Position numbers and translations under genes: made by a program. This document shows, in pieces, positions 34,159 to 46,255 of a stretch of 50,732 nucleotides of DNA (position 1 is the stretch's first letter; every line of letters begins with the position of its first letter). This DNA comes from Escherichia phage atuna. The stretch lies in sequence record NC_049819.1; one strand, 5' to 3'. Under the pieces are notes generated by a model that was given only the letters and a program-made list of their open reading frames with translations, did not search any database and had not been told where the DNA came from.

Positions 34159-34383
34159 TTAAGCTGTATATTTTACTTTTCCATCTTTGGCTCGAATGGA
34201 ATTTAGGATCTTGCTGCCGATCATCAGGTATTGACCACGTACAAGCCATTTCTTTTGTTTTTCGCTCCAGATTGCAGAAGCGTACCAGCCTTTATTAATA
34301 ACGAACTTATAAGCAAAGCGCATGACAACGGAAAAGATAATGATAGCCATGATAAAACCAATGCAGAAAGATAATGCGATCAT
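34159..34383 (-). CDS. Small membrane protein (74 aa)
   Basis: N-terminal TM segment IALSFCIGFIMAIIIFSVV. Confidence 0.45.
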   Translation of the reverse strand: MIALSFCIGFIMAIIIFSVVMRFAYKFVINKGWYASAIWSEKQKKWLVRGQYLMIGSKILNSIRAKDGKVKYTA

Positions 34384-34547
34384 TGTAAAGCCCTCACAAG
34401 GTTAATTGAAAATTGATGTGTTTCAGGATTAGCGCCCGATTGCTCTTTTGCTTTTGCTACTGCTTCCAGTTCATCAAGAGCATCAACTACGCATTCATAT
34501 TCCTGTTTGCATGATTGGCAATTACGCCCCATTCGCCGGATCGTCAT
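34380..34547 (-). CDS. Small Cys-containing protein (55 aa)
   Basis: Start at internal Met (MTIRRM) overlapping upstream stop; CQSCKQEYEC motif. Confidence 0.35.
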   Translation of the reverse strand: MTIRRMGRNCQSCKQEYECVVDALDELEAVAKAKEQSGANPETHQFSINLVRALQ

Positions 34548-34755
34548 CTTCACTTTGTAATTCATCAGCGACAACCTCACGCTTAATGCTGGTAATGTTG
34601 TGAATCGGGTAAGCAACATTTCCAATAGAAATGCAAGTTTCGTCACCGTCTAGCTGATCCTCTGTAACTTCTACTGTAAAGCTGTTAACAAAGCTATTGT
34701 AGAAAGGATGAATAACGGTATCACGGAAAGAAACGGTTAATTTGTATTTGATCAT
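34522..34755 (-). CDS. Hypothetical protein (77 aa)
   Basis: ORF preceded by T-run and SD GGAG. Confidence 0.4.
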   Translation of the reverse strand: MIKYKLTVSFRDTVIHPFYNSFVNSFTVEVTEDQLDGDETCISIGNVAYPIHNITSIKREVVADELQSEDDDPANGA

Positions 34756-34917
34756 TTTGAATCTCCATTAAAAAAGGCGATACGTCTTACGGATTATTTT
34801 GCATTGCAAAAACCTCCTGCATATCGCCGTTGTTGTGTGACTATCGCGTCACGCGTTCGGACTAAGCCGCTCTTATGTAAACGACGCCATGCTAACCAAT
34901 CAGGAAAGAGTTGTCAA

Positions 34918-35148
34918 TCATTCCCTGTCGAAAGCGTTCCCCCAACGTCCACGCAAGTAACCACATAGCCAAATGAATTGAGTGATCGTCAACATTGGCG
35001 CGATTGGCTGGTAGTGTTCTGCAATGATGCCCTTCATTACTTCATCAACATACTTCCCGCGCTTTTCCACATCCGCTTTCATCGCCTCGCCGCACTTTTT
35101 AGCCTGGCGTTTAGCTGCGTTGAATTGCGCCTCATTCATGCCGAACAT
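34918..35148 (-). CDS. Hypothetical protein (76 aa)
   Basis: Start at Met MFGMNEAQ overlapping upstream stop (TGATG). Confidence 0.4.
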   Translation of the reverse strand: MFGMNEAQFNAAKRQAKKCGEAMKADVEKRGKYVDEVMKGIIAEHYQPIAPMLTITQFIWLCGYLRGRWGNAFDRE

Positions 35149-35276
35149 CAGTATCCTCTCCCCTTCCATTCTTCCGCAAGTTTGAAATAGTTCATAGCTT
35201 CTTCCACATCTCCGCGCTCCAGTGCCTCTTCTTGCTTCTCTTTGCACCACTGCGAAGGTTGTTTGTACTCATCCAT
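35148..35276 (-). CDS. Hypothetical small protein (42 aa), not in ORF track
   Basis: ATG preceded by AAGGTGA SD; translation MDEYKQPSQWCKEKQEEALERGDVEEAMNYFKLAEEWKGRGY. Confidence 0.3.
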   Translation of the reverse strand: MDEYKQPSQWCKEKQEEALERGDVEEAMNYFKLAEEWKGRGY

Positions 35277-35346
35277 TAAATCACCTTACCAGAAAAATAG
35301 CTCGTTAGAATGCGATTGAGGCGCTCTAACTGCTATGCGTTTTTAA

Positions 35347-35661
35347 TTAAAAACCGTCGAGAATCTCTCGAAAGTTGTTTAGCGTCTTAACTTTGGCCTT
35401 ATCCCACGTTACAGATCCTGCATCTTCCCACGGGGAACCAGGGCCGTGATTTGTCATATCATCAATCAAGCAAGAGATCTCATCAATAACAACATCTTTT
35501 AAATGCTCGCGGTACTCAATATCTTCCACAGGCTCAAAAGCCTGAATGACGCCGCCTAAAACCTGTTGCTGGGCCTTTGCCTTGTCCAAATCATCGTGGA
35601 TGAAACGATGCTCTTTTTTGTTCTCGTTAGTTCCTATTTGGTAGTAGTGAATGTAAATCAT
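35347..35661 (-). CDS. Hypothetical protein (104 aa)
   Basis: Start at Met overlapping upstream stop (ATGA). Confidence 0.4.
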   Translation of the reverse strand: MIYIHYYQIGTNENKKEHRFIHDDLDKAKAQQQVLGGVIQAFEPVEDIEYREHLKDVVIDEISCLIDDMTNHGPGSPWEDAGSVTWDKAKVKTLNNFREILDGF

Positions 35662-35921
35662 AAACCTGATTCCTCCATAGTCTCGTTTATGCGCTTCCAG
35701 TTTTCGACTTGCTGATCTCTGTATCCGTTCTCTCCGAACCATGCGGCAGTTTCCGCTTGCTCAGTCCCAGCAGGATCAAATGCGTGTTCTAGCTGGCTGA
35801 AAACTTCACGCGCCACTGGCTCATAAATTTTAACTGTGGCCTGTAAACCGTCATTGTCTCGCCAACCGAAGGCCGACAACATAATGCGCGCTTGCTGCTC
35901 TGACAGGTTAATCGTGATCAT
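35658..35921 (-). CDS. Hypothetical protein (87 aa)
   Basis: Start ATG overlapping upstream stop (ATGA). Confidence 0.4.
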   Translation of the reverse strand: MITINLSEQQARIMLSAFGWRDNDGLQATVKIYEPVAREVFSQLEHAFDPAGTEQAETAAWFGENGYRDQQVENWKRINETMEESGL

Positions 35922-36130
35922 TCTTCTACTACCTCGCATTCGTCATGGTTAACACTAATATTGTCGCCAGCCTTGATAAACTCGCTGTTACGCGGCGCAA
36001 TAACACAATAAGATCCGTCGCTGAAATGTCCGTCAACTTCCAGCACATCACCAACAACCAAACCGCATTGCTCAAGAGTGATTGATCCGTCTCCGTTGAT
36101 AGTGTCGATTTTGGTGATTTTGATTTTCAT
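35918..36130 (-). CDS. Small acidic protein (70 aa)
   Basis: Asp/Glu-rich; first gene downstream of a motif module. Confidence 0.45.
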   Translation of the reverse strand: MKIKITKIDTINGDGSITLEQCGLVVGDVLEVDGHFSDGSYCVIAPRNSEFIKAGDNISVNHDECEVVEE

Positions 36131-36187
36131 TGCGCTTTCCTCTGTTTCGCTTCAATAAGGGCACTTTATCAAATGCCCCTGCGGAAG

Positions 36188-36207
36188 TTTTAACAAAAAG
36201 TGCTATT
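36188..36207 (-). promoter_or_regulatory. Conserved intergenic motif copy (exact) + hairpin
   Basis: Exact 20-mer; hairpin ggggcatttgataaagtgccc follows on minus strand; leader GAAGCGAAACAGAGG. Confidence 0.5.
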
Positions 36208-36496
36208 AGCTCAGATAGTAAAGCTCATCGCGCGCGAAGTCATCAAAATCTAGCTGTGTCAGCGGTCGATCCTCTCGCGCCGCTTCCTCTATCATGTTGA
36301 TCAAAAAATCGCCCATCGCTCCTAGTCCGCCATCCGGCATATAGCAAGCTGCGAAAGCTCGCGCCCATGAACGAGCATTTTTGAATCCGGCGCGCTTCAT
36401 TGTGACTGGCGAGTGTTTAGAGTCGTTCCACTTGTTACACTGCGCGATGTTTTCAAAAGCGTTAACCAGTAGTTTGCGGTAAGTTTTGTTTGCCAT
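36206..36496 (-). CDS. Hypothetical protein (96 aa)
   Basis: ORF. Confidence 0.45.
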   Translation of the reverse strand: MANKTYRKLLVNAFENIAQCNKWNDSKHSPVTMKRAGFKNARSWARAFAACYMPDGGLGAMGDFLINMIEEAAREDRPLTQLDFDDFARDELYYLS

Positions 36497-36507: not shown

Positions 36508-36690
36508 TTATTTTTGTTTAAGCCCCATCAGCATCTTGCGAACGCCGTCCTTTTTCCCGTCAGAGTAGCCAGTAATTGAACCAGCGGCAAACACCATCAA
36601 GTTGCCCCAAAAGGCCATAATGCCCTCATAGTTAATGGTTAAATGGCTGCCGAAAAGGATCAGGAAAAGAACAATAATACCAGTTTTCAT
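36508..36690 (-). CDS. Small membrane protein (60 aa)
   Basis: Start at Met MKTGII preceded by GAGGTG; two hydrophobic segments. Confidence 0.4.
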   Translation of the reverse strand: MKTGIIVLFLILFGSHLTINYEGIMAFWGNLMVFAAGSITGYSDGKKDGVRKMLMGLKQK

Positions 36691-36697: not shown

Positions 36698-36946
36698 TCA
36701 GTAACAATCATTAACGTGAATCAGTACGGAAAAACGACACTTGCGTAAGCTGTGGCGCTTCTTGACGTACATATAAGCATCACTGTAATACTTAAATTCA
36801 GTGGCAATGATGCCGAAAAAGTCGTCTGTAACATAGTGCCAATTGCCTCCTAAGCTGCGTCGCTGCACATGATAAGTAGAACAGTCGCGGCAAAATACGA
36901 TCCGGTATTCCGGCTTAAACAGTCGTTTCAATGCGTTAAAAACCAT
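36698..36946 (-). CDS. Hypothetical protein (82 aa)
   Basis: ORF. Confidence 0.4.
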   Translation of the reverse strand: MVFNALKRLFKPEYRIVFCRDCSTYHVQRRSLGGNWHYVTDDFFGIIATEFKYYSDAYMYVKKRHSLRKCRFSVLIHVNDCY

Positions 36947-37045
36947 AGTAGCGCCCTCATGCTATAAAGAAAAAGTAGCATTGATAATACCGCAATCATT
37001 GCGGAATGAAAATCAAAAGGTGGCTTAGGATTCGTTGCGTTATTG

Positions 37046-37426
37046 TTATTTCCCAGCATTGCGCGCAATCCTCTTGTATCCATAGTAGAAATCATCGCCT
37101 ACGCCACGGAATTTTAACGCGTTACGCGCCAGGCGGCGGATTCGACGATTATCCAGTTTGCCGTAATTTATTGGCGCTTTAATCGTCTTGATTGGACAAC
37201 CGCGATGATTAGTGATTCGCTTAAGAGTGGCAACAATACCCTCAAGCGCACGGATAGCGAAGCCGTCGAATCCAAGATCTTTATTGATTAGATAGCCATT
37301 GATACCAGGGATTCCGAACCTTTTGCTATCAACCTTAACAATCTGGCCCTTCTTCATTCCGCTATCGGGAATTGCATAAGTAACTAAGAATTTAGTGCCG
37401 ACGCGGATTTTTCGGATGTTAACCAT
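37046..37426 (-). CDS. Hypothetical basic protein (126 aa)
   Basis: ORF downstream of a motif module with TATAAT. Confidence 0.45.
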   Translation of the reverse strand: MVNIRKIRVGTKFLVTYAIPDSGMKKGQIVKVDSKRFGIPGINGYLINKDLGFDGFAIRALEGIVATLKRITNHRGCPIKTIKAPINYGKLDNRRIRRLARNALKFRGVGDDFYYGYKRIARNAGK

Positions 37427-37482: not shown

Positions 37483-37502
37483 TTTAGCAATTCGTGCTAT
37501 TT
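37483..37502 (-). promoter_or_regulatory. Motif variant (AAATAGCACGAATTGCTAAA) + hairpin + TATAAT
   Basis: Minus strand: variant motif, hairpin cggggttatctgccccg, TATAAT 22 nt after TTGCTA, SD agagg, ATG 37426. Confidence 0.55.
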
Positions 37503-38087
37503 AATCTGTGTGTGCTTCCATTTGACCGTATTGACGATCTCGTTTACAGCCATTTCCGGCTTGCCGTCCTGCAATTGGAAGTCATAGTGATGGATTCGAT
37601 AGTGATAACCGCTCAGGTCAATGTAGTCTCTCGAATCGCCAGCAAACGTGAAGCCGTCGCGATGCAATCGGCAAATATGCACTTCATGCCCTGCCTTAAC
37701 CAGCGGTTTGATTTCTTCGGGGAACCCGCCATCACTGATCACAACCGCCAAATCTCGGTACATCTCGTGAATCTCTTCAACCATTCGACGCCCGAAATAG
37801 TGATCCCCAAAAACTGGCTTCATTACATCCTCGCTAATCCAGATCATGAATTGTCGAGGTGACTTGCCGCCTAAGATAACTTGAGGCTTTTCTTTTTGCT
37901 CTCGGTCGTTGTACAGGTCCATAAATTCATCGTATCGAGTCGGGCCAAGCATAGAAAAAGCAATGTCGAACATAGGTTGCTTGAATGATGCCTTAACCGC
38001 TGGGTAACGATGGCCTGTTAGGTAAGCTGCAATAGTGTCCTTCCCGCAACCTGGAGGCCCATTAAGGATGATAATGTCTCGTTTCAT
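37497..38087 (-). CDS. P-loop kinase, dNMP-kinase-like (GKDT-type Walker A)
   Basis: ILNGPPGCGKDT Walker A with GKDT signature recalled from phage deoxynucleoside monophosphate kinases. Confidence 0.6.
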   Translation of the reverse strand: MKRDIIILNGPPGCGKDTIAAYLTGHRYPAVKASFKQPMFDIAFSMLGPTRYDEFMDLYNDREQKEKPQVILGGKSPRQFMIWISEDVMKPVFGDHYFGRRMVEEIHEMYRDLAVVISDGGFPEEIKPLVKAGHEVHICRLHRDGFTFAGDSRDYIDLSGYHYRIHHYDFQLQDGKPEMAVNEIVNTVKWKHTQIK

Positions 38088-38089: not shown

Positions 38090-38281
38090 TTACTCTCCCC
38101 TTGCTTTCAAGACGGTAATTTCTGTTGTCTCGCTTAAAACCTTGAAATTTCTATTCTCGCTTTTGATCGTCATATTGACAATCATAACCTGACCGCGCTC
38201 TATCATGTCGGCAAGCTCTCGAAGGTGACATGCAGTTTTGGCAATCTCTTCGCTTTTTTTGTCAAATGGTGGCAATTGCAT
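38090..38281 (-). CDS. Hypothetical protein (63 aa)
   Basis: ORF. Confidence 0.4.
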   Translation of the reverse strand: MQLPPFDKKSEEIAKTACHLRELADMIERGQVMIVNMTIKSENRNFKVLSETTEITVLKARGE

Positions 38282-38425
38282 TTATTTTTCTCCATAGCGT
38301 GAGTTGATATTACGCAGCATTTCGCGTCTATGGCGCTTCTTGCGCTGTTTGTTCACAAACTCCACATGCTCATCGTACCCGCGACGCTTCTTTTTGGTAA
38401 TGATTTTTTCAAAGTTACGCATCAT
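38282..38425 (-). CDS. Small basic protein (47 aa), not in ORF track
   Basis: ATG preceded by AAGGGGGAAATG SD; stop abuts next start; Lys/Arg-rich. Confidence 0.3.
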   Translation of the reverse strand: MMRNFEKIITKKKRRGYDEHVEFVNKQRKKRHRREMLRNINSRYGEK

Positions 38426-38662
38426 TTCCCCCTTTATGTTTTCTCAACATGGCGCACTGCATGAATGCGCCATAGCAAGAATCACCAATCAAATTTCTGT
38501 TTGTCTCTGATAATCTCGTAAATTGCTAACCACACCCAAACAAACCAGAAAGCGAGAACGATTTTATCTTCTTTGTCTGTCGTGTCAGAATATTTCACCA
38601 ACGCGCGGAACGTAAACAAGCCTGAAATGTAAAGAAAAACAACCAAAAAGCAAGTAACCAAA

Positions 38663-38926
38663 TCATTTATTTTCTCCTTCTACTACCAGAGTGTAAAGCA
38701 GAACAGGCTCTACCATGTCGCGGCGGCGCGGCTCTCGTGGCGAATCGGGCCATGCACATTTCCCGTTTGCCACAACATGACCTACCAGGTCACTAAGTTT
38801 TGAGATTCCATCTCGACGGATAACGTTATACCCAATATCCTTGCCGTCAATAGAATGGATAGCGAAGAAGCTAGGCGCACCATCAATAATGTCTACCGCT
38901 TTAAAAAACTCGATCTTGTTAGCCAT
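38663..38926 (-). CDS. Hypothetical protein (87 aa)
   Basis: ORF downstream of a motif module. Confidence 0.45.
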   Translation of the reverse strand: MANKIEFFKAVDIIDGAPSFFAIHSIDGKDIGYNVIRRDGISKLSDLVGHVVANGKCAWPDSPREPRRRDMVEPVLLYTLVVEGENK

Positions 38927-38982: not shown

Positions 38983-39002
38983 TTTTAACAAAAAGTGCTA
39001 TT
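38983..39002 (-). promoter_or_regulatory. Conserved intergenic motif copy (exact) + hairpin containing ATAGTA
   Basis: Exact 20-mer; ATAGTA 23 nt after TTGTTA on minus strand; leader CCCATCAACAACAAAC. Confidence 0.55.
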
Positions 39003-39297
39003 TGCGCGCCATTTTGCGAAGCTGGCGGCTGGTTAGTTTGCGCGGATCGACTACGTGACTGGCAACAATTCGGCCTCCTGCAATCAATACTTTATTCCAA
39101 TGGTTATGGTTGCTTTGTTCTGTTGCATGCCATCTAAACATGAAGAACGCAGGAGAAATTCTGCCACGCAGAGAAGGCCTACACTTCCCGCGAGCGTCGC
39201 GATACATCGCGATTGAGGTGTTGCCTTTATGGTTTACGTGGTAAAGGTGAACCCCCATCTCGTTTGTGAATTTATAAATCGCATTGCGTACTAACAT
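38998..39297 (-). CDS. Hypothetical basic protein (99 aa)
   Basis: ORF downstream of a motif module. Confidence 0.45.
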   Translation of the reverse strand: MLVRNAIYKFTNEMGVHLYHVNHKGNTSIAMYRDARGKCRPSLRGRISPAFFMFRWHATEQSNHNHWNKVLIAGGRIVASHVVDPRKLTSRQLRKMARK

Positions 39298-39353: not shown

Positions 39354-39373
39354 TTTTTGCAAAAAGTGCTATT
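39354..39373 (-). promoter_or_regulatory. Motif variant (AATAGCACTTTTTGCAAAAA) + hairpin containing ATAGTA
   Basis: Near-duplicate of module at 38983, including hairpin gggcttgcggtatagtaagccc. Confidence 0.5.
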
Positions 39374-39560
39374 CTTTAATCTCAAAGCAATCCGTATCAT
39401 CTTCAAAAATCCACGGATCGCCATTATCATCAATCATAGATATGTTGCCAAAACTGGTTAAAGATGCGCTGTATGATTTCTCAATGGTGAAGCATTCGCG
39501 AACCTCTTCATCTTCACTGCCCTTAAATACAACAATCATTTGATGCATAAAGTCAGCCAT
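39369..39560 (-). CDS. Small acidic protein (63 aa)
   Basis: Asp/Glu-rich ORF. Confidence 0.4.
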   Translation of the reverse strand: MADFMHQMIVVFKGSEDEEVRECFTIEKSYSASLTSFGNISMIDDNGDPWIFEDDTDCFEIKE

Positions 39561-40966: not shown

Positions 40967-41151
40967 TAGAATTTTACCTCTTCCACAAGCTCAACCATCT
41001 TGTAACCAAGACGATAAGAGTCACCGAACAACAAGATCCCCATAAATTCATCGTGGCTTATTGACTCTTTGCCAACCGTTCTAAGCTCTCCGTTGTGAAT
41101 AACAGTATCGCCGATCTTGATTTCTGATTTATGGACTAATTTCGTTTTCAT
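40966..41151 (-). CDS. Hypothetical protein (61 aa)
   Basis: ORF. Confidence 0.4.
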   Translation of the reverse strand: MKTKLVHKSEIKIGDTVIHNGELRTVGKESISHDEFMGILLFGDSYRLGYKMVELVEEVKF

Positions 41152-41166: not shown

Positions 41167-41352
41167 TTAAAAGAACGCTACATAGTTTGCAATGCCTTTG
41201 GCGTCGTCGTTTGGCATTGCTTTCACAGCCAGGTCATAACCCGCCTCTACCTTCTGCTTTGCTGTTTCTTCGTTGTAGCCCCAGATAACCAGGATTTTAA
41301 CTACGTTTTCTTTGTTCAGGACTTTAAGGTCTTTGGTGATGCGACGTGCCAT
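41167..41352 (-). CDS. Hypothetical protein (61 aa)
   Basis: ORF downstream of a motif module. Confidence 0.4.
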   Translation of the reverse strand: MARRITKDLKVLNKENVVKILVIWGYNEETAKQKVEAGYDLAVKAMPNDDAKGIANYVAFF

Positions 41353-41409: not shown

Positions 41410-41429
41410 TTTTAACAAAAAGTGCTATT
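41410..41429 (-). promoter_or_regulatory. Conserved intergenic motif copy (exact) + hairpin + ATAAT + leader CATCGAAACGAG
   Basis: Exact 20-mer, hairpin cgccaggcgcaaagcctggc, ATAAT 23 nt after TTGTTA. Confidence 0.55.
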
Positions 41430-41685
41430 TAATATCTGTTGTGACTTGCTGGTGCATTACGTTCTTTCCGCTGTTGTACGTGCTATCCGTTGCGCCTTTG
41501 CAATTGGTGTAATAGATCGCGCGACCGTTATCATAGAATCTGTATGCTGTGCATCCGTCAACAGTGAACAGGCGGCCGACTTTGAAATCTGACTCCACGC
41601 CTACGACAACCGTTGATTCTGATGCCTTTTCGCATCCGGTCAGGAGTGTCATTGCCACCAAAACACCGATTAACGCCTTTTTCAT
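41425..41685 (-). CDS. Lipoprotein (86 aa)
   Basis: Signal peptide with lipobox LTGC (MKKALIGVLVAMTLLTGC). Confidence 0.55.
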   Translation of the reverse strand: MKKALIGVLVAMTLLTGCEKASESTVVVGVESDFKVGRLFTVDGCTAYRFYDNGRAIYYTNCKGATDSTYNSGKNVMHQQVTTDIK

Positions 41686-42146
41686 TGTTCATCCTCCAGG
41701 AAAGTTTTTTTGATCATCGCGTGAAAGTCAGCGACGGCCTTTGATAATGTTTCATACTCTTCCGGCGCATAGTTTGCCAGGTTTGGCGACATATCAATGA
41801 TCGCCTCTGCAACCTTGCGCTTAGCCTGGCGCACCGCCCTTTCCAGTGCCTCTTTGTTGTAAACCTTGCGACGGCCTTCAACAATCCGCACCTCGTAGAA
41901 AGTGCTACCGAAGTTTTCATCTTCCGGCCCGTAAACGCCACGGGTAACGGATACGCGCCCCCGCTCGGCGACTTCTGGCACTCGACTCATGATCTGGCGA
42001 ATGTAGGCCGCCGGATTGCTTGCCGACTTCTTGCCGAACATGTGGACCTGCAAATACGCGTCAGGAATCTTGATCGTCTCTTCCTCGCCATTAGCCAGCA
42101 TAATAGCGGCACGGCGCAGCGTGTCAGTGAATGATTGCTCGCTCAT
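41682..42146 (-). CDS. Hypothetical early protein (154 aa)
   Basis: Start at ATG (MSEQSF) after CAGGAGGTAG; first gene of leftward early arm. Confidence 0.5.
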   Translation of the reverse strand: MSEQSFTDTLRRAAIMLANGEEETIKIPDAYLQVHMFGKKSASNPAAYIRQIMSRVPEVAERGRVSVTRGVYGPEDENFGSTFYEVRIVEGRRKVYNKEALERAVRQAKRKVAEAIIDMSPNLANYAPEEYETLSKAVADFHAMIKKTFLEDEQ

Positions 42147-42174
42147 TTCTACCTCCTGGTTGTTAGGTGTGGGC

Positions 42175-42203
42175 ATTATCAATAATGCTATTTAATGTGT
42201 CAA
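42175..42203 (-). promoter_or_regulatory. Sigma70-type promoter (TTGACA-N17-GATAAT) for leftward early arm
   Basis: Exact TTGACA, 17-nt spacer, GATAAT on minus strand about 30 nt upstream of SD of gene 41682-42146. Confidence 0.6.
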
Positions 42204-42510
42204 CTGTTTTTTCTTGTTCCCGCGTGTTTTATCAATTTTACATGGTGGCACAATAACAATATAGGCGTTATTTTTCCTTATAAATCAATGTTATCATTGC
42301 CTGTTATCTAAGTTTTCTCGCGGAAAGTGCCATATAGATATATATACCCCTACATACCCATACACACATACAGATACACAAAAACTATATACCCCCACCA
42401 AATACCACAATAACCAAGATAACAAAAGAGAATATATAGATACATATAAATAAATAATCCTTATTTTTCAATGTATTATATAGGTATTGTTTGTTATTTT
42501 TTGTTATCGT
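42196..42510. repeat. A+C-rich strand-skewed low-complexity element, copy B (homologous to 12141-12350, with about 100-bp extra segment)
   Basis: Shared blocks with copy A; sits in the 640-bp non-coding region between divergent early arms. Confidence 0.6.
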
Positions 42511-42741
42511 ATTTTGCGGAAGGTCAACAAAAGAACAGGCGGGAACGTAACATAACAACCACTGACAGCCAGGCGGAAAAGTGAGGCAAGAGGGGAAGGT
42601 TTCACTATCTCCCATGCAACCAATGATTAAACGTGATTGCTTTTCTCATCAAATTTGCAAAGGCAATCATCATTTTGACGTGATTTGATTACGAATGATT
42701 ACTTTTGATTATTTCGATCACAATCCTGGCGCTAACCGTCA

Positions 42742-42761
42742 AATAGCACTTTTTGTTAAAA
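42742..42761 (+). promoter_or_regulatory. Conserved intergenic motif copy (exact) + leader CATCGAAACGAA for rightward early arm
   Basis: Exact 20-mer about 60 nt upstream of ATG 42821. Confidence 0.55.
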
Positions 42762-42820
42762 CTCAGGCCACCTGATCGGGTACATTACACACATCGAAAC
42801 GAACCGCTCAGGAGATAGCA

Positions 42821-43093
42821 ATGAACATCAGCAAAACCACTTTCAACTTCGCTAAGCGTCACGGTCTGGATCTGACTGTTGAAGATTTTGGCGATGTTCT
42901 GCAACTCTGCATTTGGGAAGCAGATAACGATTGCGAGTGGCTTTGCTCTTATCGTATCAACTACGATTGCTTGACCTGGCACGGCAATATCTATCTGCCG
43001 CAAGAAGTGAAAGAAGAATTGCCAGCGACTATCAACAACGAGGTTTTCTTGCGTCAGGTGCTGAAATTTATCAGTGAGGAGATCAAGAAGTAA
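42821..43093 (+). CDS. Hypothetical early protein (90 aa)
   Basis: ORF with SD caggagatag. Confidence 0.45.
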   Translation: MNISKTTFNFAKRHGLDLTVEDFGDVLQLCIWEADNDCEWLCSYRINYDCLTWHGNIYLPQEVKEELPATINNEVFLRQVLKFISEEIKK

Positions 43094-43359
43094 TGGCGGT
43101 GATTACCGAAAATGATTTGGATCTGGCGGAGGCATTTTGCAGGGCCGCCAGGGCTAACCTGGATGTGGCTACTAAATTTCTTCCGGCGCGACCACTCTTT
43201 TCGTGTGCGCCCGTGAATAAACCGACTCGCGTAATGATCGTGATTGAAGGTGATGGCCTGTACGCTGAAAAGACGTTTCACATCAGCAACATTAAGGGCC
43301 GTGCTGATTTTATCAATGATGTTTGCTTATTGCAGGAGAAGAAAAAATGTTGGATGTGA
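43093..43359 (+). CDS. Hypothetical early protein (88 aa)
   Basis: ORF, start overlaps previous stop. Confidence 0.4.
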   Translation: MAVITENDLDLAEAFCRAARANLDVATKFLPARPLFSCAPVNKPTRVMIVIEGDGLYAEKTFHISNIKGRADFINDVCLLQEKKKCWM

Positions 43360-43556
43360 TCAAGAAAGCACATGAGATGGGTATGGATGTTTCAATCTGC
43401 GACGCTTCCGCGCGCCACCCGTCAGCGCCTGAAAATATGGTTGTTGTCATCGTGCATAATCACCGCTATGAGTGCCGTGCGATGTTTGAGAAACAGGATA
43501 AAGAGTCTCAACGCTGTTTTATCAACGAAGTCTGTGATCTGTATGGGCGTATCTGA
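43347..43556 (+). CDS. Hypothetical early protein (69 aa)
   Basis: Start at ATG after GGAGAAGAAAAA. Confidence 0.35.
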   Translation: MLDVIKKAHEMGMDVSICDASARHPSAPENMVVVIVHNHRYECRAMFEKQDKESQRCFINEVCDLYGRI

Positions 43557-43557
43557 A

Positions 43558-43770
43558 ATGTTCAAGAAATTGTTATGGCTGTACCGCTCCAGGCGCAACA
43601 AGGGATATTGCAGGGGCACGGAAAGGAATCTTGACCGCGCTTATAAATACTGCCTGTTGTTGCTCGCCAGTCTGCCGGAAAACAGGAAGGAATATATTGC
43701 ACTGCGAGAAATAACAATGCGGATATATAGTTACCGCAATAAACTATACGTCTTTAAATCTTTACGATAA
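43558..43770 (+). CDS. Small basic protein (70 aa)
   Basis: Translationally coupled (TGAAATG); the longer overlapping ORF 43372-43770 is rejected. Confidence 0.35.
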   Translation: MFKKLLWLYRSRRNKGYCRGTERNLDRAYKYCLLLLASLPENRKEYIALREITMRIYSYRNKLYVFKSLR

Positions 43771-43782
43771 GGAGTAATAACC

Positions 43783-44046
43783 ATGAAAATTAATGCACCT
43801 ATTCCAGTTAAGCGCAAAGCACGTTTGCTCAATAACGGATGTTACGCCCTGCGGCCTGCATTTAAGGATCGCACATTTCCGGTTATCGTTAACGTGTCTC
43901 ACGTAAGCCGTAGCGGAAACCTGGTATTCGTTAAAGGTGAAGATCTGACGGCTCTTGGATTCTATGGCGGTGTTCACGGCGAAGCGCTCGGATTCTGGCT
44001 TGTGGATCCGTTAACTGGAGAGCGTGAAATCGAATTCCTGGACTAA
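43783..44046 (+). CDS. Hypothetical early protein (87 aa)
   Basis: SD TAAGGAG upstream. Confidence 0.45.
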   Translation: MKINAPIPVKRKARLLNNGCYALRPAFKDRTFPVIVNVSHVSRSGNLVFVKGEDLTALGFYGGVHGEALGFWLVDPLTGEREIEFLD

Positions 44047-44065
44047 ATAGCACTTTTTGTTAAAA
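44046..44065 (+). promoter_or_regulatory. Conserved intergenic motif copy (exact) + hairpin with TGGTATAGT + leader CATCGAAACGAAAC
   Basis: Exact 20-mer starting in the stop codon of upstream gene; TATAGT 22 nt after TTGTTA. Confidence 0.6.
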
Positions 44066-44123: not shown

Positions 44124-44351
44124 ATGTCAGTAGTCGCCAACCAGAAAGCAATCGACCAGACAAACGACAAACGTTTTGCGATTTTCATCACTCGCAACCA
44201 TAAGCGCTACGCTGTTAAGGCTATCCCTGGCGGTTATGCTACATACATGGAATTGAGCGGCGGCTGGTATCGTTGTGAGAATCTCTCAAACTTCCTGGTA
44301 TGGAATGCGGAATTCCAGGGCTTTGATGATATTTCTTCAATCACTTACTAA
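44124..44351 (+). CDS. Hypothetical early protein (75 aa)
   Basis: ORF with SD cagagg. Confidence 0.45.
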   Translation: MSVVANQKAIDQTNDKRFAIFITRNHKRYAVKAIPGGYATYMELSGGWYRCENLSNFLVWNAEFQGFDDISSITY

Positions 44352-44365
44352 CAGGAGATCAAAAA

Positions 44366-44773
44366 ATGGTATCGCAGTCTCTTAAATTCATTGGCGAAAA
44401 CACCAGTCACGCATGGACTTTCACAAAAGGCGCTGAATACGCCGTATTGCGCGATGAAAAATATGGCGATGAGTATGTTCTTGATGATTATCGCGAACCT
44501 CTTTACATCTCGCGTGACGATGATAACCGATTCTATGGCACTGGCTTTGAAAGTTACGCTTTCCGACCAGTATTTGAAGAGGAATTACGGCCTATTTACC
44601 GCGTAATTGCAACTAATCGCGAGAATGGACGGGCCACCCTTTGTTATGCAGGCCATTTTAAAAAGAGAGCGCAAAATTGCTACAATGGCCTGAAAGATAA
44701 AGAATCAATTATTCGCGATCATCGTGTGACGCTCCAGGAGTTGCGGCCAATCACTATCGACACCACGGAATAA
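44366..44773 (+). CDS. Hypothetical early protein (135 aa)
   Basis: ORF with SD caggag. Confidence 0.5.
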   Translation: MVSQSLKFIGENTSHAWTFTKGAEYAVLRDEKYGDEYVLDDYREPLYISRDDDNRFYGTGFESYAFRPVFEEELRPIYRVIATNRENGRATLCYAGHFKKRAQNCYNGLKDKESIIRDHRVTLQELRPITIDTTE

Positions 44774-44792
44774 AAAGCACTTTTTGTTAAAA
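44773..44792 (+). promoter_or_regulatory. Motif variant (AAAAGCACTTTTTGTTAAAA) + hairpin with TGGTATATT + leader CATCGACAACAAAC
   Basis: 19/20 match, same architecture as 44046. Confidence 0.55.
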
Positions 44793-44848
44793 GTCGTATG
44801 CGGTAAGTTGGTATATTTACCGCATCGACAACAAACGAGGATTTAAAG

Positions 44849-45046
44849 ATGGAAAATCAGGTTGATGTTAAAGTTGTTAAGCGCGACAAGTCTCACGAAA
44901 AAGGTTTGTTTAAGAAAGGTGCTGAAATCACCATTGACCTTGATGATATGGAGGCGTACCACTCAGGGCTAACTTGGAACGTGCGCAAATGTGAAAACGG
45001 CCTGTTCAAGTTAAATGGCTTTGAAACATACATGGAGATCATTTAA
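44849..45046 (+). CDS. Hypothetical early protein (65 aa)
   Basis: ORF. Confidence 0.45.
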   Translation: MENQVDVKVVKRDKSHEKGLFKKGAEITIDLDDMEAYHSGLTWNVRKCENGLFKLNGFETYMEII

Positions 45047-45327
45047 TGGCATACGAAAAGAATGATTTCAATAGCGCAAGAGAAAAAATCAAGGCGGCGC
45101 GAATTAAACAGCGCGCCTTTAGATTCTGGCTTGACTATCGCGATCTAAGAAAAGAGATGGATACGCTTATTAAGACTGGTAGCGCATTCTGCTCTAATAG
45201 AACGGTTTGGCGAAATATGAATGCGCAGTACGGCCAGGGTAAAATTCGTGTATTTGGCGGCGCTGTTGATGCTTATGTATTTAGCGCAACAAAGGCTGTA
45301 AGTTTTAACGTAACTGGGATCGCATAA
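45046..45327 (+). CDS. Hypothetical early protein (93 aa)
   Basis: ORF, TAATG coupling. Confidence 0.45.
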   Translation: MAYEKNDFNSAREKIKAARIKQRAFRFWLDYRDLRKEMDTLIKTGSAFCSNRTVWRNMNAQYGQGKIRVFGGAVDAYVFSATKAVSFNVTGIA

Positions 45328-45539
45328 TGGCAAAGCAATTAAAACTTAAATGCGTAGAAACTTATAACTCAATTTGGAAATTTACGCGCGGAAAAGAATA
45401 TCCACTAATGGGAAATCTCAAAGAAGATCCTCATGTAATTTCAGATAATGGTCTTCACCTTTATTTAATGGAATACAACGATGGGTATATTGGCGCTGGT
45501 GTTACAGGTCATAAATTTAAGCTGAAAAATAAGAAATGA
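45327..45539 (+). CDS. Hypothetical early protein (70 aa)
   Basis: ORF, TAATG coupling. Confidence 0.45.
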   Translation: MAKQLKLKCVETYNSIWKFTRGKEYPLMGNLKEDPHVISDNGLHLYLMEYNDGYIGAGVTGHKFKLKNKK

Positions 45540-45647
45540 GGCTATTTATTTTCAAAAACGCTTGGATGGTGGCGGTTGCAAATGACCATTACGGCGGCGA
45601 CGGAAAAAGAGCGCCACGTCATTCATATTTCAATTGAGGATATTTAA

Positions 45648-45875
45648 ATGAAAGCAAAAGTTTTAAACATTATGGCAACTATTGACGCTCATCACCGCGT
45701 GGCTGTAAAACTTGATAAGTCCTGCGGAATTAGCCAAATCACTATCACCGAGGGCAAAGGCGGCTATCTTATTGGTATCCATCCAGGCGGTAAGGTGCGC
45801 AAATACAATAAAGATCAGGTAAAAGAATTACTGGAAGAAAACGCTTTCTATATTCAAAGTTGGCGCTCTCTTTAA
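45648..45875 (+). CDS. Hypothetical early protein (75 aa)
   Basis: ORF. Confidence 0.45.
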   Translation: MKAKVLNIMATIDAHHRVAVKLDKSCGISQITITEGKGGYLIGIHPGGKVRKYNKDQVKELLEENAFYIQSWRSL

Positions 45876-45883
45876 TTAATCTG

Positions 45884-45904
45884 GCGGCGTTTTGCCGCCT
45901 TTTA
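45884..45904 (+). terminator. Hairpin + T-run (possible attenuating terminator)
   Basis: ggcggcgttttgccgcc followed by TTTT, then SD gaggtgg. Confidence 0.45.
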
Positions 45905-45917
45905 AATGAGGTGGAAA

Positions 45918-46034
45918 ATGATAGATAAAGCTATTGATTTCTTTTTTTATTCGATTATTGGCGCGGTTGGTTTTTTGGTTACTGCTGCTGGCCTGGCTAT
46001 TATCTTGGCTGTTATTAAGGGAGTTATGCGATGA
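45918..46034 (+). CDS. Small membrane peptide (38 aa), not in ORF track
   Basis: ATG after GAGGTGG; hydrophobic FFFYSIIGAVGFLVTAAGLAIILAVI; stop overlaps next start (ATGA). Confidence 0.3.
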   Translation: MIDKAIDFFFYSIIGAVGFLVTAAGLAIILAVIKGVMR

Positions 46035-46255
46035 GTCAGGACGGTTTTTTTGAGCGCCTTCAAATGGCAGAAGATGCCGGACTAAATAAAGAGGCGGCGC
46101 TTGAAGTGGCATATAAAATTAAGACTCTTGATGAGGCTTTAGGTGATATGGATATGGATCTTGAATCAAGCGCAATATTTGCAGATCCCACTATGATTGT
46201 TAATGATTGTGGATGCGATTTCGATCCTAGTTGTCCGCGCTGTTTTCCGTTTTGA
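46031..46255 (+). CDS. Small acidic protein (74 aa)
   Basis: Asp/Glu-rich, C-terminal Cys cluster CGCDFDPSCPRC; coupled to downstream methyltransferase-like gene. Confidence 0.45.
   Translation: MSQDGFFERLQMAEDAGLNKEAALEVAYKIKTLDEALGDMDMDLESSAIFADPTMIVNDCGCDFDPSCPRCFPF

What the first reader, a model, noticed from the sequence alone, without database searches (positions are those of the whole stretch)
34159..46255. Dense arms of translationally coupled small ORFs, including several strongly acidic proteins, as a pool of candidate host-takeover or anti-defence factors
Both early arms consist mostly of 40-135-aa ORFs with overlapping stop/start codons (ATGA, TAATG, TGATG). Several are markedly Asp/Glu-rich (35918-36130, 39369-39560, 46031-46255), a property of DNA-mimic anti-restriction proteins. 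Others are short membrane peptides or Lys/Arg-rich (38282-38425, 43558-43770). None could be assigned by motif.
Basis: inference. Interest (0 to 1): 0.4.

Follow-up and report, generated by a model that had tools for sequence, protein, structure and literature searches.

The report
T1-like phage terminal small-gene arms
The region is the well-known pair of small-gene arms at the genome ends of a T1-like coliphage: the 42 little genes are real and conserved, but nothing supports the idea that the acidic ones are DNA-mimic anti-restriction proteins.

Summary
The window is a Warwickvirus (Drexlerviridae, T1-like), about 98% identical to FritzSarasin/Bas04 and SECphi27. Positions 34159-46255 are its two divergent terminal arms, matching T1 genes ST77-ST55 and ST1-ST7.

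There are 42 genes with a median of 75 aa. 15 of 39 junctions overlap (scored on the interim 41-gene model). Pooled dN/dS is 0.11. All flagged coordinates are correct.

"None could be assigned" is wrong:
- 44849-45046 is a Gp54-family beta-barrel. Its Bas11 homologue triggers the CapRel defence protein; this allele is identical to the non-triggering SECphi27 one.
- 38282-38425 belongs to the T7 gp1.1 family.
- 39561-40097 is a PNKP-type phosphatase and 37497-38087 a dNMP-kinase-like NTPase.

The DNA-mimic idea finds no support. No sequence, profile or fold match exists. The acidic proteins are more constrained than the neighbouring enzymes. The genome strongly avoids type I and II restriction sites, and Bas04 is restricted wherever it has sites.

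New leads:
- The acidic Cys4 protein at 46031-46255 is translationally coupled to the Dcm-like methylase in 22 of 24 loci.
- A rigid 16-nt promoter-like box (20 copies against 1.4 expected) heads the gene cassettes.

Verdict: ordinary and already known as a region. Individual functions remain open.

The parts
41682..42146 (-). m28, 154 aa, first gene of the minus arm; DUF7174
   Evidence: Pfam PF23796 5.6e-27. The AGGAGG SD and promoter position fix the start at 42146. Allelic: 29% identical to Bas04/SECphi27, 100% to Bas05.
41425..41685 (-). m27, 86-aa lipoprotein (signal peptide plus LTGC lipobox)
   Evidence: Read from the sequence. DUF4884 is below threshold at 24.7 bits against 30. ATGA overlap with m28.
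41167..41352 (-). m26, 61 aa, DUF7421
   Evidence: Pfam PF24196 3e-40. Together with m25 it forms a cassette exchanged recently between subfamilies: pS 0.16-0.40 against about 0.8 in the flanks.
40966..41151 (-). m25, 61 aa, unknown function
   Evidence: phrog_3623; dN/dS 0.10; horizontal-exchange signal.
40665..40892 (-). m24, 75 aa, unknown function (start uncertain)
   Evidence: 58-60% identical to Bas04 gp69. The start was moved to the nearest ATG.
40306..40665 (-). m23, 119 aa, variable cassette
   Evidence: Absent from Bas04-07 and SECphi27. 35% identical to T1 ST1, which sits on the other arm in T1.
40094..40303 (-). m22, 69 aa, unknown function
   Evidence: phrog_14011; ATGA overlap with m21.
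39561..40097 (-). m21, 178-aa HAD phosphatase of the PNKP type, with no kinase domain
   Evidence: Pfam PF25109 8.4e-20 and phrog_415 3e-66. Matches PDB Pnkp1 and T4 Pnk phosphatase domains. Has the DLDGT motif and no P-loop (sequence). Core gene, in 48 of 51 loci.
39369..39560 (-). m20, 63-aa acidic protein (25% D/E, net -12); flagged by the finder
   Evidence: Found in 62 phage records, always next to the phosphatase. Only 6 clusters among 5.8 billion proteins. pS 0.97 and pN 0.085. AF2 pLDDT 56. No PDB or Pfam hit. Absent from Bas04-07.
38998..39297 (-). m19, 99 aa, very basic (net +15), variable cassette
   Evidence: Found in 4 of 51 loci.
38663..38926 (-). m18, 87 aa, unknown function
   Evidence: Found in 26 of 51 loci; dN/dS 0.15.
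38482..38661 (-). m17, 59-aa membrane peptide (TTG start)
   Evidence: Hydropathy 2.11; phrog_9755.
38282..38425 (-). m16, 47-aa Lys/Arg-rich peptide of the T7 gene 1.1 family; flagged by the finder
   Evidence: Pfam PF08200 at 22.6 bits against a gathering cut-off of 21, E 1.4e-4. It scored 16.3 bits inside the concatenated query, so membership is borderline.
38090..38281 (-). m15, 63 aa, unknown function
   Evidence: phrog_16293. Annotated as a 'putative DNA-binding protein' in Bas07.
37497..38087 (-). m14, 196-aa P-loop NTPase resembling dNMP kinase
   Evidence: phrog_139 3e-50. Found in 50 of 51 loci. 46% identical to T1 ST62.
37046..37426 (-). m13, 126 aa, very basic (net +20)
   Evidence: No family hit.
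36928..37059 (-). m12, 43-aa membrane peptide
   Evidence: Hydropathy 2.0. Conserved in 19 loci.
36698..36946 (-). m11, 82 aa, contains 4 Cys
   Evidence: dN/dS 0.10.
36508..36690 (-). m10, 60-aa hydrophobic peptide
36206..36496 (-). m09, 96 aa, unknown function
   Evidence: phrog_8758. Found in 30 of 51 loci.
35918..36130 (-). m08, 70-aa acidic protein (net -9) with an invariant C-terminal ECEVVE; flagged by the finder
   Evidence: Found in 401 phage records, about 87% identical even in Klebsiella phages. pN 0.073 at pS 0.57. DUF5666 is below threshold at 19.7 bits against 27. No PDB hit. Alignment A3.
35658..35921 (-). m07, 87 aa, DUF7180; core gene
   Evidence: Pfam PF23805 7e-29. Found in 43 of 51 loci. 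40% identical to T1 ST60.
35347..35661 (-). m06, 104 aa, acidic (net -9)
   Evidence: phrog_11192.
35148..35276 (-). m05, 42 aa, 26% D/E
   Evidence: phrog_1312. 9 synonymous against 1 non-synonymous change.
34918..35148 (-). m04, 76 aa; core gene
   Evidence: phrog_303. Found in 44 of 51 loci. 99% amino-acid identity at pS 0.67.
34522..34755 (-). m03, 77 aa, acidic (net -9); not flagged by the finder
   Evidence: No family hit.
34380..34565 (-). m02, 61 aa, contains a CxxC motif; core gene
   Evidence: phrog_2919. Found in 45 of 51 loci. 48% identical to T1 ST56.
34159..34383 (-). m01, 74-aa membrane protein, DUF7299; last gene of the minus arm
   Evidence: Pfam PF23973 2e-27; hydropathy 2.82.
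34136..34153 (.). Bidirectional intrinsic terminator separating the minus arm from TerS
   Evidence: 7-bp stem with 6 GC pairs, followed by a T-run. T1 carries an annotated terminator at the same position.
42175..42203 (-). Near-consensus sigma-70 promoter at the head of the minus arm (TTGACA, 17 nt, GATAAT)
   Evidence: 11 of 12 matches.
42147..42820 (.). AT-rich non-coding gap between the arms; corresponds to T1's physical genome ends
   Evidence: The ORF at 42385-42615 has dN/dS about 1.1 and no SD, so it is not a gene.
42821..43093 (+). p01, 90 aa, first gene of the plus arm
   Evidence: phrog_6147; dN/dS 0.06.
43093..43359 (+). p02, 88 aa
   Evidence: Present in Bas04 and Bas05 and absent from Bas06 and Bas07.
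43347..43556 (+). p03a, 69 aa
   Evidence: This frame is intact in 4 relatives and frameshifted in the Bas04 record.
43558..43770 (+). p03b, 70-aa Lys/Arg-rich protein (net +13); flagged by the finder
   Evidence: 98.6-100% identical in 4 loci. No family hit.
43783..44046 (+). p04, 87 aa
   Evidence: phrog_9595. 52% identical to T1 ST71, which sits on the opposite arm in T1.
44124..44351 (+). p05, 75 aa
   Evidence: phrog_11449. 71% identical to T1 ST75.
44366..44773 (+). p06, 135 aa
44849..45046 (+). p07, 65 aa, Gp54 family (the 'phage antiviral trigger protein')
   Evidence: Pfam PF25180 7.6e-37 over its full length. PDB 9AXB/9ERV at 6e-15. 100% identical to the SECphi27 homologue, which does not activate CapRel-SJ46 (PMC11578894).
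45046..45327 (+). p08, 93 aa, basic
45327..45539 (+). p09, 70 aa
   Evidence: Present in Bas04 and Bas05 and absent from Bas06, Bas07 and SECphi27.
45536..45637 (+). p10, 33 aa
   Evidence: phrog_32259. 5 synonymous against 0 non-synonymous changes.
45648..45875 (+). p11, 75 aa
   Evidence: phrog_4344. 38% identical to T1 ST5.
45883..45899 (+). Intrinsic terminator inside the plus arm, just before p12
   Evidence: 7-bp stem with 6 GC pairs, followed by a T-run.
45918..46034 (+). p12, 38-aa membrane peptide
   Evidence: Hydropathy 2.51; ATGA overlap with p13.
46031..46255 (+). p13, 74-aa acidic protein (net -11) with an invariant C-terminal Cys4 cluster; flagged by the finder
   Evidence: Found in 448 phage records. 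C60, C62, C68 and C71 are invariant. AF2 pLDDT 66: three helices, an acidic linker and a Cys knuckle. No PDB fold or profile hit. Ends 4 nt before the methylase ATG, and the linkage holds in 22 of 24 loci.
46260..46976 (+). Dcm-like methyltransferase, just outside the finder's range; forms a translationally coupled unit with p12 and p13
   Evidence: phrog_757 6e-85. No Pfam or PDB hit. Annotated as Dcm-like in the Bas04-07 records.
36188..36203 (-). Promoter-like box GCACTTTTTGTTAAAA upstream of m08
38983..38998 (-). Promoter-like box upstream of m18
39354..39369 (-). Promoter-like box (2 mismatches) upstream of m19
40947..40962 (-). Promoter-like box upstream of m24
   Evidence: Also found by the promoter scan.
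41410..41425 (-). Promoter-like box upstream of m26
42746..42761 (+). Promoter-like box at the head of the plus arm, upstream of p01
44050..44065 (+). Promoter-like box upstream of p05
44777..44792 (+). Promoter-like box upstream of p07 (the Gp54 homologue)

Best explanation
The region is the pair of divergently transcribed, non-structural small-gene arms that flank the genome ends of a T1-like coliphage (genus Warwickvirus). It holds 42 real protein-coding genes under purifying selection.

Shown:
- The genes are packed into about a dozen short cassettes whose members are linked by overlapping or abutting stop and start codons.
- The minus arm begins at a near-consensus sigma-70 promoter and ends at a strong terminator just before the terminase genes.
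- Inside both arms, most cassettes are headed by one conserved element: a 16-nt box, then a 19-nt spacer that is usually a hairpin, then a -10-like hexamer.
- The same element also heads the replication and methylase genes. It never heads a structural gene in sense orientation.
- The gene content has a small conserved core: a dNMP-kinase-like NTPase, a PNKP-type phosphatase, and m02, m04 and m07.
- That core is embedded in cassettes that are gained, lost, replaced by unrelated genes, or exchanged between subfamilies.

Inferred:
- The arms are expressed before the late genes.
- Their products adjust the host cell in several ways: the nucleotide pool (kinase plus phosphatase), the envelope (several membrane peptides and a lipoprotein, probably for exclusion or lysis timing), phage DNA methylation (the p12-p13-methylase unit), and host proteins or defence sensors (the Gp54-family barrel, the T7 gp1.1-like peptide, and small Cys-rich acidic and basic proteins).
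- The three flagged acidic proteins are most likely tight binders of conserved partners. For p13 that partner is probably the adjacent methylase; for m08 and m20 it is probably a conserved host or phage protein. They are unlikely to be DNA mimics.
For: - Identity and architecture: 98% identity to Bas04 and MikeNSara; taxonomy and gene maps; T1 map with terminal repeat, arms and terminator; gene-by-gene matches to T1 and SECphi27.
- Real genes: pooled dN/dS 0.11; 37 of 42 with an SD core; wide distribution.
- Coupling: 15 of 39 junctions overlap.
- Transcription signals: promoter at 42203-42175, terminators at 34136-34153 and 45883-45899.
- Box element: 20 copies against 1.4 expected; contexts; conserved in T1; 148 of 160 unique copies have the -10-like hexamer exactly 19 nt after the box, and the spacer folds at -9.0 against -4.0 kcal/mol for shuffles.
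- Family assignments.
- Core versus cassette pattern. Recent exchange of m25-m26 and strong constraint on m08, m20 and p13.
- Natural loss of the m19-m26 block in Bas05.
- p13-methylase coupling.
- Gp54 is non-essential and is a CapRel trigger: PMC11578894.
Against: - No expression data for any T1-like phage were found, so the 'early' timing and the promoter function of the box are not shown.
- The box-to-hexamer distance is longer than a normal sigma-70 spacer (19 nt after TTAAAA). The element may need a phage factor, which would make the arms 'middle' rather than 'early'.
- No function was demonstrated for 36 of the 42 proteins.
- Both structure models were of low or moderate confidence.
- The partner-binding idea rests only on constraint and synteny.
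Confidence: 0.7

Rival explanations
1. The finder's reading. The Asp/Glu-rich proteins (35918-36130, 39369-39560, 46031-46255) would be DNA mimics that block restriction enzymes, as Ocr and ArdA block type I systems.
For: - They are acidic, with net charge -9 to -12 over 63-74 aa.
- They lie in arms that also carry other defence-related genes.
- The excess of strongly charged proteins over shuffles is real: 5 against 0.74.
- Bas04 and Bas05 were described as unusually RM-resistant for unexplained reasons (PMC8594841).
Against: - No Pfam match appears at E up to 10.
- No profile match to any solved structure, Ocr and ArdA included.
- The p13 model has no PDB fold match.
- In p13 the invariant residues are a helical core and four cysteines, not an acidic surface.
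- These proteins change 2-4 times more slowly than the neighbouring enzymes.
- m08 and p13 are also present in Bas06 and Bas07, and m20 is absent from Bas04 and Bas05.
- The window has 0 EcoKI, 2 EcoBI and 0 EcoAI sites against 6.5, 9.3 and 3.8 expected. That implies continuing selection by type I systems.
- The 'resistance' of Bas04 tracks its site counts. It is restricted about 100-fold by EcoRI and 1,000- to 10,000-fold by EcoCFT_II.
Confidence: 0.06
2. p13 (46031-46255) would be a small zinc-binding partner of the atypical Dcm-like methylase, acting as a subunit, specificity factor or regulator. It would then contribute to anti-restriction through methylation rather than mimicry.
For: - Its stop codon lies 4 nt before the methylase ATG, and the methylase SD overlaps that stop codon.
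- The same arrangement holds in 22 of 24 loci, down to 45% methylase identity.
- The methylase is short (238 aa) and matches no Pfam model or PDB chain.
- CCWGG is enriched 2.3-fold in the genome.
- The Cys4 cluster is invariant.
- In Tunavirus, where only the N-terminal half of p13 survives, it is not next to the methylase.
Against: - Synteny alone does not show an interaction.
- An HNH gene is inserted between the two genes in Bas05 and JLBYU10.
- No p13-methylase fusion exists among 1.84 billion representative proteins.
- The p13 model has only moderate confidence.
Confidence: 0.2
3. Many of the small ORFs would be annotation noise rather than genes.
For: - Records disagree on several calls (43347-43770).
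- The 76-codon ORF at 42385-42615 has dN/dS about 1.1 and no SD.
Against: - Pooled dN/dS is 0.11, and every retained gene with enough substitutions scores below 0.6.
- 37 of 42 genes have an SD core.
- Even the 33-aa and 42-aa ORFs show only synonymous or nearly only synonymous change.
Confidence: 0.02

Closest known systems
Terminal small-gene arms of coliphage T1 (ST77-ST55 and ST1-ST7) and other Drexlerviridae
   Same: - Same position relative to the genome ends, TerS and the terminator.
- Same divergent layout.
- Shared core genes: m02~ST56, m04~ST59, m07~ST60, m14~ST62, m21~ST64, p11~ST5, p13 N-terminal half~ST6.
- The same promoter-like box is present.
- From my own recollection, the T1 genome paper (Roberts et al., Virology 2004) already noted many small genes without homologues at the termini. 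PMC13164509 repeats that about half of T1 proteins, mostly small ORFs, are of unknown function.
   Different: - Cassette content differs, and only about 10 of 42 genes have a detectable T1 counterpart.
- Some homologues sit on the opposite arm (m23~ST1, p04~ST71, p05~ST75).
- T1's left arm carries an HNH gene (ST63) next to the phosphatase that has no counterpart in the window's minus arm.
- T1 keeps only the N-terminal half of p13 (ST6), and there it is not next to a methylase.
Gp54 of phage Bas11 (PF25180; PDB 9AXB and 9ERV), a trigger of the CapRel-SJ46 defence protein
   Same: - p07 matches the family model over its full length and matches the solved protein.
- It has the same size and the same genomic neighbourhood.
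- The family is non-essential and its native function is unknown.
   Different: p07 is identical to the SECphi27 allele. That allele did not activate CapRel-SJ46 when tested.
Ocr (T7 gp0.3), ArdA and other DNA-mimic anti-restriction proteins
   Same: - Small, acidic proteins.
- Encoded among the first genes near a genome end.
   Different: - No sequence, profile or fold similarity.
- Much smaller net charge.
- The host genome avoids type I sites.
- p13 carries a Cys4 cluster, and m08 is predicted by sequence pattern to be beta-rich.
T7 gene 1.1 protein (PF08200)
   Same: m16 is a very basic peptide of 47 aa that passes the family's gathering score. It lies among non-structural genes.
   Different: - The score is borderline: 22.6 bits alone and 16.3 bits inside a concatenated query.
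- The function of T7 gp1.1 is itself unknown, so membership explains nothing.
T4 middle promoters (a MotA box replacing the -35 element); a resemblance only, recalled from memory
   Same: A highly conserved box at a fixed, non-canonical distance upstream of a good -10 hexamer, repeated in front of many non-structural genes.
   Different: - The box sequence and its distance differ.
- No MotA or AsiA homologue was looked for.
- The spacer carries a hairpin.
- No experimental data exist.

Membership tests
DNA-mimic anti-restriction proteins (Ocr, ArdA) | Sequence or profile similarity to a known mimic family | tested here: not met
   No Pfam hit at E up to 10 for m03, m08, m20 or p13, apart from a sub-threshold DUF5666 hit for m08. 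PDB profile searches found nothing below E 0.25 and no mimic.
DNA-mimic anti-restriction proteins (Ocr, ArdA) | A fold that displays carboxylates in a B-DNA-like pattern | tested here: inconclusive
   p13 model: pLDDT 66, no PDB match below E 3. m20 model: pLDDT 56, unusable.
DNA-mimic anti-restriction proteins (Ocr, ArdA) | Inhibition of type I restriction in vivo | not testable with these tools
   Indirect evidence points against it. Type I sites are depleted: EcoKI 0 against 6.5, EcoBI 2 against 9.3. Bas04 has no EcoKI sites, so published plating data are uninformative for type I.
Gp54 family (PF25180) | Full-length match above the gathering score | tested here: met
   p07 scores 125.4 bits against a cut-off of 27, covering 1-65 of 65. 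PDB 9AXB at E 6e-15.
Gp54 family (PF25180) | Activates CapRel-SJ46 | not testable with these tools
   The identical SECphi27 protein was reported not to activate it (PMC11578894).
T7 gene 1.1 protein (PF08200) | Match above the gathering score | tested here: met
   m16 scores 22.6 bits against a cut-off of 21. This is borderline: 16.3 bits when scanned inside a concatenated query.
Polynucleotide kinase-phosphatase (T4 Pnk type) | HAD phosphatase domain | tested here: met
   m21 matches PF25109 at 71.8 bits against a cut-off of 27.6. It has the DxDGT motif (sequence).
Polynucleotide kinase-phosphatase (T4 Pnk type) | P-loop 5'-kinase domain in the same protein | tested here: not met
   m21 is 178 aa with no P-loop. 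Its matches cover only the phosphatase part of Pnkp1 and T4 Pnk. The common 'polynucleotide kinase' label therefore overstates what is there.
T1-type terminal small-gene arms (Drexlerviridae) | Synteny: genome end, small genes, terminator, TerS on one side; genome end, small genes, helicase/methylase on the other | tested here: met
C5-cytosine methyltransferase (for the gene coupled to p13) | Match to PF00145 or to a solved C5-MTase | tested here: not met
   No Pfam hit at E up to 0.01 and no PDB hit. Only phrog_757 'DNA methyltransferase' and motif-level resemblance (FDGSG, FPPC) support the label.

The most novel reading that the evidence does not exclude
At least one of the three hyper-constrained acidic proteins would have a new, specific role. 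The best candidate is p13, as a zinc-binding partner that the atypical Dcm-like methylase needs for activity or specificity. That would be a two-component phage methylase used for anti-restriction. Alternatively, m08 or m20 could be inhibitors of a conserved host protein. Separately, the 16-nt box could define an activator-dependent promoter class organising Drexlerviridae non-structural transcription, with conserved antisense copies inside the late operon.
Probability: 0.15. Interest if true: 0.5.

Novelty: already known. Interest (0 to 1): 0.22.

Why it matters
As a region it changes little. Hundreds of T1-like genomes carry the same arms, annotated as hypothetical proteins, and the idea that such genes act on the host or its defences is standard.

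The value of this check is in narrowing the field:
- It removes the DNA-mimic reading.
- It shows that this lineage's visible answer to restriction is site avoidance plus its own methylases.
- It links one gene to the known CapRel trigger family.
- It corrects gene calls that differ between records.
- It leaves three concrete, testable leads: the p12-p13-methylase unit; p02 and p09 as the only arm genes that track the mild EcoP1 restriction of Bas04 and Bas05; and the repeated promoter-like box.

Tried and rejected
- **Longest-ORF gene calls.** Several starts were too far upstream (m02, m04, m06, m07, m10, m12, m24, m28). I corrected them against Bas04 and SD motifs.
- **A single 132-aa ORF at 43372-43770.** Rejected because its first 62 codons carry stop codons in three relatives. 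The finder's start at 43558 is right.
- **ORF 42385-42615 in the terminal gap.** Rejected as a gene: dN/dS about 1.1 and no SD.
- **Concatenating proteins with X linkers** to save searches worked, but it lowered one borderline score (m16), so flagged proteins were rescanned alone.
- **NCBIfam** gave nothing useful. PADLOC was not run.
- **AlphaFold2 on m20 and p13** gave pLDDT 56 and 66. The m20 model was not searched. p13 had no PDB match and matched only uncharacterised relatives in BFVD.
- **Exhaustive profile search for p13** found 31 small relatives and no methylase fusion.
- **Literature.** No paper in the library contains the box sequence, and none gives T1-like expression timing. The RAZR trigger in SECphi27 is Erf (Gp77), outside the arms.
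- **Bas04/Bas05 'RM resistance' as evidence for an inhibitor.** Rejected for types I and II because it follows site counts.
- **Reading the hairpins as terminators in the sense direction.** Rejected because no T-run follows them.

Full report
**What the window is.**
- The 12.1-kb stretch is 97-98% identical to Escherichia phages MikeNSara, FritzSarasin (Bas04), BEK12A and tonnikala. It matches 266 phage records in all.
- These are Drexlerviridae, subfamily Tempevirinae, genus Warwickvirus.
- Gene by gene, most proteins are 95-100% identical to SECphi27.
- In the T1 reference record the terminal repeat lies at the left end. It is followed by 23 small genes (ST77-ST55), a terminator and TerS. 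A second set of small genes (ST1-ST7) runs inward from the right end.
- The window has the same layout in circularly permuted form.
- The minus arm (42146 down to 34159) ends at a strong bidirectional terminator (34136-34153), just before TerS (33553-34080).
- The plus arm (42821 to 46255) runs into a methylase and a helicase.
- The 674-nt AT-rich gap between the arms corresponds to T1's genome ends.

- I corrected start codons against Bas04 and SD motifs and arrived at 42 genes.
- Median length is 75 aa, and 35 genes are 100 aa or shorter.
- 91% of the span is coding outside the gap, and 37 of 42 genes have an SD core.
- On the interim 41-gene model, 15 of 39 junctions overlap (7 ATGA, 5 one-base overlaps) and 12 more have gaps of 0-15 nt.
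- The finder's own refutation test was lack of conservation. It fails clearly.
- Against 51 related loci, pooled dN/dS is 0.11 over 1,716 substitutions.
- Even the 33-aa and 42-aa ORFs show almost only synonymous change.
- One ORF I had included (42385-42615) is not a gene: dN/dS is about 1.1 and it has no SD.
- The ORF I first called at 43372-43770 is really two genes. The finder's coordinates 43558-43770 are the correct second one.

**Charge.**
- The three flagged proteins have net charges of -9, -12 and -11. Two more (34522-34755 and 35347-35661) also reach -9.
- Five such proteins is more than residue shuffling gives (mean 0.74, maximum 4 in 2000).
- Real proteomes are always over-dispersed in charge, however. 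Only 39369-39560 beats a per-protein binomial test for D/E content.

**'None could be assigned by motif' is wrong.**
- 44849-45046 is a full-length member of Pfam PF25180, 'Phage antiviral trigger protein Gp54' (7.6e-37). It matches the solved Gp54 of Bas11 (PDB 9AXB).
- Gp54 of Bas11 is a non-essential six-stranded beta-barrel that directly activates the CapRel-SJ46 defence protein. Its authors suggest it may inhibit another defence system (PMC11578894).
- The window's protein is identical to the SECphi27 homologue, which did not activate CapRel-SJ46.
- 38282-38425 passes the gathering score of the T7 gene 1.1 family, though narrowly.
- 39561-40097 is a PNKP-type HAD phosphatase without a kinase domain.
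- 37497-38087 is a dNMP-kinase-like P-loop protein.
- 41425-41685 is a lipoprotein.
- Four further genes match DUF families.

**The DNA-mimic idea.**
- None of the acidic proteins matches any Pfam family, even at E up to 10.
- None matches any solved structure by profile search.
- The p13 model (pLDDT 66) has three N-terminal helices, a disordered acidic linker and a C-terminal knuckle with four invariant cysteines. It matches nothing in PDB and only uncharacterised relatives among viral models.
- The m20 model was too poor to use.
- Evolution points the same way. At synonymous divergence that is saturated for m20 and p13 and high for m08 (pS 0.57), the acidic proteins have pN of 0.07-0.13. 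The neighbouring enzymes have 0.20-0.37.
- These are among the most constrained proteins in the arms. That suits a fixed partner better than an arms race.
- m08 and p13 are near-core genes, in 401 and 448 records. m20 is patchy, in 62 records, always beside the phosphatase.

**Published phenotypes.**
- The BASEL paper reports that most Drexlerviridae are very RM-sensitive, while Bas04 and Bas05 are highly resistant for unknown reasons.
- Its supplementary tables show the likely reason. Bas04 has 0 EcoKI, 0 EcoCFT_I and 0 EcoRV sites and plates at about 1 on those systems.
- Bas04 is restricted about 100-fold by EcoRI (8 sites) and 1,000- to 10,000-fold by EcoCFT_II (52 sites).
- The window shows the same avoidance:

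| Site | Observed | Expected |
|---|---|---|
| EcoKI | 0 | 6.5 |
| EcoBI | 2 | 9.3 |
| EcoRI | 4 | 20.7 |
| EcoRV | 0 | 11.2 |
| HindIII | 0 | 23 |
| PstI | 0 | 12 |
| EcoP1 | 24 | 51 |
| CCWGG (Dcm) | 120 | 52 |
| GATC (Dam) | 306 | 186 |

- The visible anti-restriction strategy is therefore passive: site avoidance plus the phage's own Dam-like and Dcm-like methylases.
- Depletion of type I sites implies that type I systems still select on this lineage. That argues against an efficient Ocr-like inhibitor.
- One oddity remains. Bas04 and Bas05 are barely restricted by EcoP1 (EOP 0.1-1 with 20-28 sites), whereas Bas06 is (about 0.001 with 42 sites).
- Among the arm genes, only p02 and p09 are present in Bas04 and Bas05 and absent from Bas06 and Bas07.
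- None of the acidic genes tracks that phenotype.
- This is a weak correlation. It rests on four phages, arm genes only, and I did not read the Bas07 plating data.

**How the arms are built and expressed.**
- Eleven junctions have gaps above 50 nt, most of them 70-82 nt. Eight of these gaps carry one element.
- The element reads: (T)AGCACTTTTTGTTAAAA, a 19-nt spacer that is usually a GC hairpin of variable sequence, a -10-like hexamer (TATAAT, TATAGT or CATAAT), CATCGAAAC, the SD and the ATG.
- The 16-nt box occurs 20 times in the window against 1.4 expected.
- Besides the arm cassettes it heads the Dam-like methylase, both helicases and other non-structural genes. It never heads a structural gene in sense orientation.
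- It is conserved in T1 (9 copies), although synonymous sites between these subfamilies are saturated.
- Among 172 unique copies, 160 had a recognisable -10-like hexamer, and 148 of those place it exactly 19 nt after the box. The spacer folds at -9.0 kcal/mol against -4.0 for shuffles.
- I read it as the promoter class for non-structural genes. The non-canonical spacing leaves open whether host RNA polymerase needs a phage factor.
- The minus arm also has a near-consensus sigma-70 promoter at its head.
- No paper in the searchable library contains the box sequence, and no expression data were found.
- Timing therefore remains an inference.

**Core and cassettes.**
- Across 51 loci, m14, m21, m02, m04 and m07 are nearly universal. 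Many other genes occur only in close relatives.
- Bas04 has an unrelated gene in the m20 slot, and two other genes where the window has m23.
- Bas05 lacks the whole m19-m26 block, including the phosphatase.
- The m25-m26 cassette has pS of 0.16-0.40 in phages whose flanking genes are saturated. It therefore moved between subfamilies fairly recently.
- Homologues also change arms between subfamilies.

**The p12-p13-methylase unit.**
- p12 (a 38-aa membrane peptide) overlaps p13 by ATGA.
- p13 ends 4 nt before the ATG of the Dcm-like methylase, whose SD overlaps the p13 stop codon.
- The same arrangement is found in 22 of 24 loci, down to 45% methylase identity.
- In Tunavirus, where only the N-terminal half of p13 survives, it is not beside the methylase.
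- The methylase is short. It matches only a PHROG family, with no Pfam model or solved structure.
- No fused form exists among 1.84 billion representative proteins.
- A partner role for p13 is the most specific hypothesis these data allow. It rests on synteny only.

**Verdict.**
The generic interpretation is reasonable but standard.
- The DNA-mimic interpretation is not supported.
- The region is a known feature of T1-like genomes, so interest is low.
- The side results may be worth a bench test: the promoter-like box, the p13-methylase coupling, and site avoidance as the explanation for the Bas04 phenotype.

Noticed in passing
window 2319, 3390, 5879, 12432, 36188, 38983, 39354, 40947, 41410, 42746, 44050, 44777, 46976, 47650, 49812 (16-nt box start positions): A rigid promoter-like element: GCACTTTTTGTTAAAA, a 19-nt hairpin spacer, then a -10-like hexamer. 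It occurs 20 times against 1.4 expected. It heads non-structural genes across the whole genome and is conserved in T1. No paper in the searchable library contains its sequence.
   Followed up: partly
window 23594-23609 (+) and 27347-27362 (+): Two copies of the same box lie antisense to the late genes, next to the major tail and major capsid/scaffold genes. T1 has copies at the equivalent places (T1 18847 and 15083). They may be antisense promoters that damp late genes early in infection.
   Followed up: no
whole window: Very strong avoidance of restriction sites: EcoKI 0 against 6.5 expected, EcoRV 0 against 11, HindIII 0 against 23, PstI 0 against 12, EcoRI 4 against 21, EcoP1 24 against 51. 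In contrast, CCWGG and GATC are enriched about 2-fold, matching the phage's Dcm-like and Dam-like methylases.
   Followed up: yes
window 40966-41352 (m25-m26): This two-gene cassette with its own box is 92-98% identical in Tunavirus-like phages whose flanking genes are only about 46% identical. Its pS is 0.3-0.4 against 0.8 in the flanks, which indicates recent exchange between subfamilies.
   Followed up: partly
window 43347-43770; L001 10195-10617: Public records disagree here. Bas04 annotates one 140-aa fusion caused by a frameshift, JLBYU10 annotates two overlapping ORFs, and SECphi27 annotates only the first gene. Conservation supports two genes, at 43347-43556 and 43558-43770.
   Followed up: yes
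L052 (Bas05) 43032-43104 compared with window 38927-41424: Bas05 naturally lacks the whole m19-m26 block, including the PNKP-type phosphatase. Those eight genes are therefore dispensable for growth on E. coli K-12.
   Followed up: partly
window 43093-43359 (p02) and 45327-45539 (p09): These are the only arm genes present in Bas04 and Bas05, which are barely restricted by EcoP1 despite 20-28 sites. Both are absent from Bas06 and Bas07. The correlation is weak: four phages, and the Bas07 plating data were not read.
   Followed up: partly
window 42330-42460: The terminal gap contains odd purine-poor repeats (TATATACCCCTAC, ATACACACATACAGATACAC) and many short inverted repeats. It may be related to the packaging site or the genome ends.
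   Followed up: no
L052 38894-39421; L002 11202-11693: In Bas05 and JLBYU10 an HNH-type gene is inserted exactly between p13 and the methylase, breaking the otherwise conserved coupling.
   Followed up: no
window 40306-40665, 43783-44046, 44124-44351: Homologues of these genes lie on the opposite arm in T1 (ST1, ST71, ST75). Genes therefore move across the genome-end junction between subfamilies.
   Followed up: partly
window 39561-40097: The gene is widely annotated as 'polynucleotide kinase', but it has only the phosphatase domain. A separate P-loop protein lies 1.5 kb downstream, at 37497-38087.
   Followed up: partly
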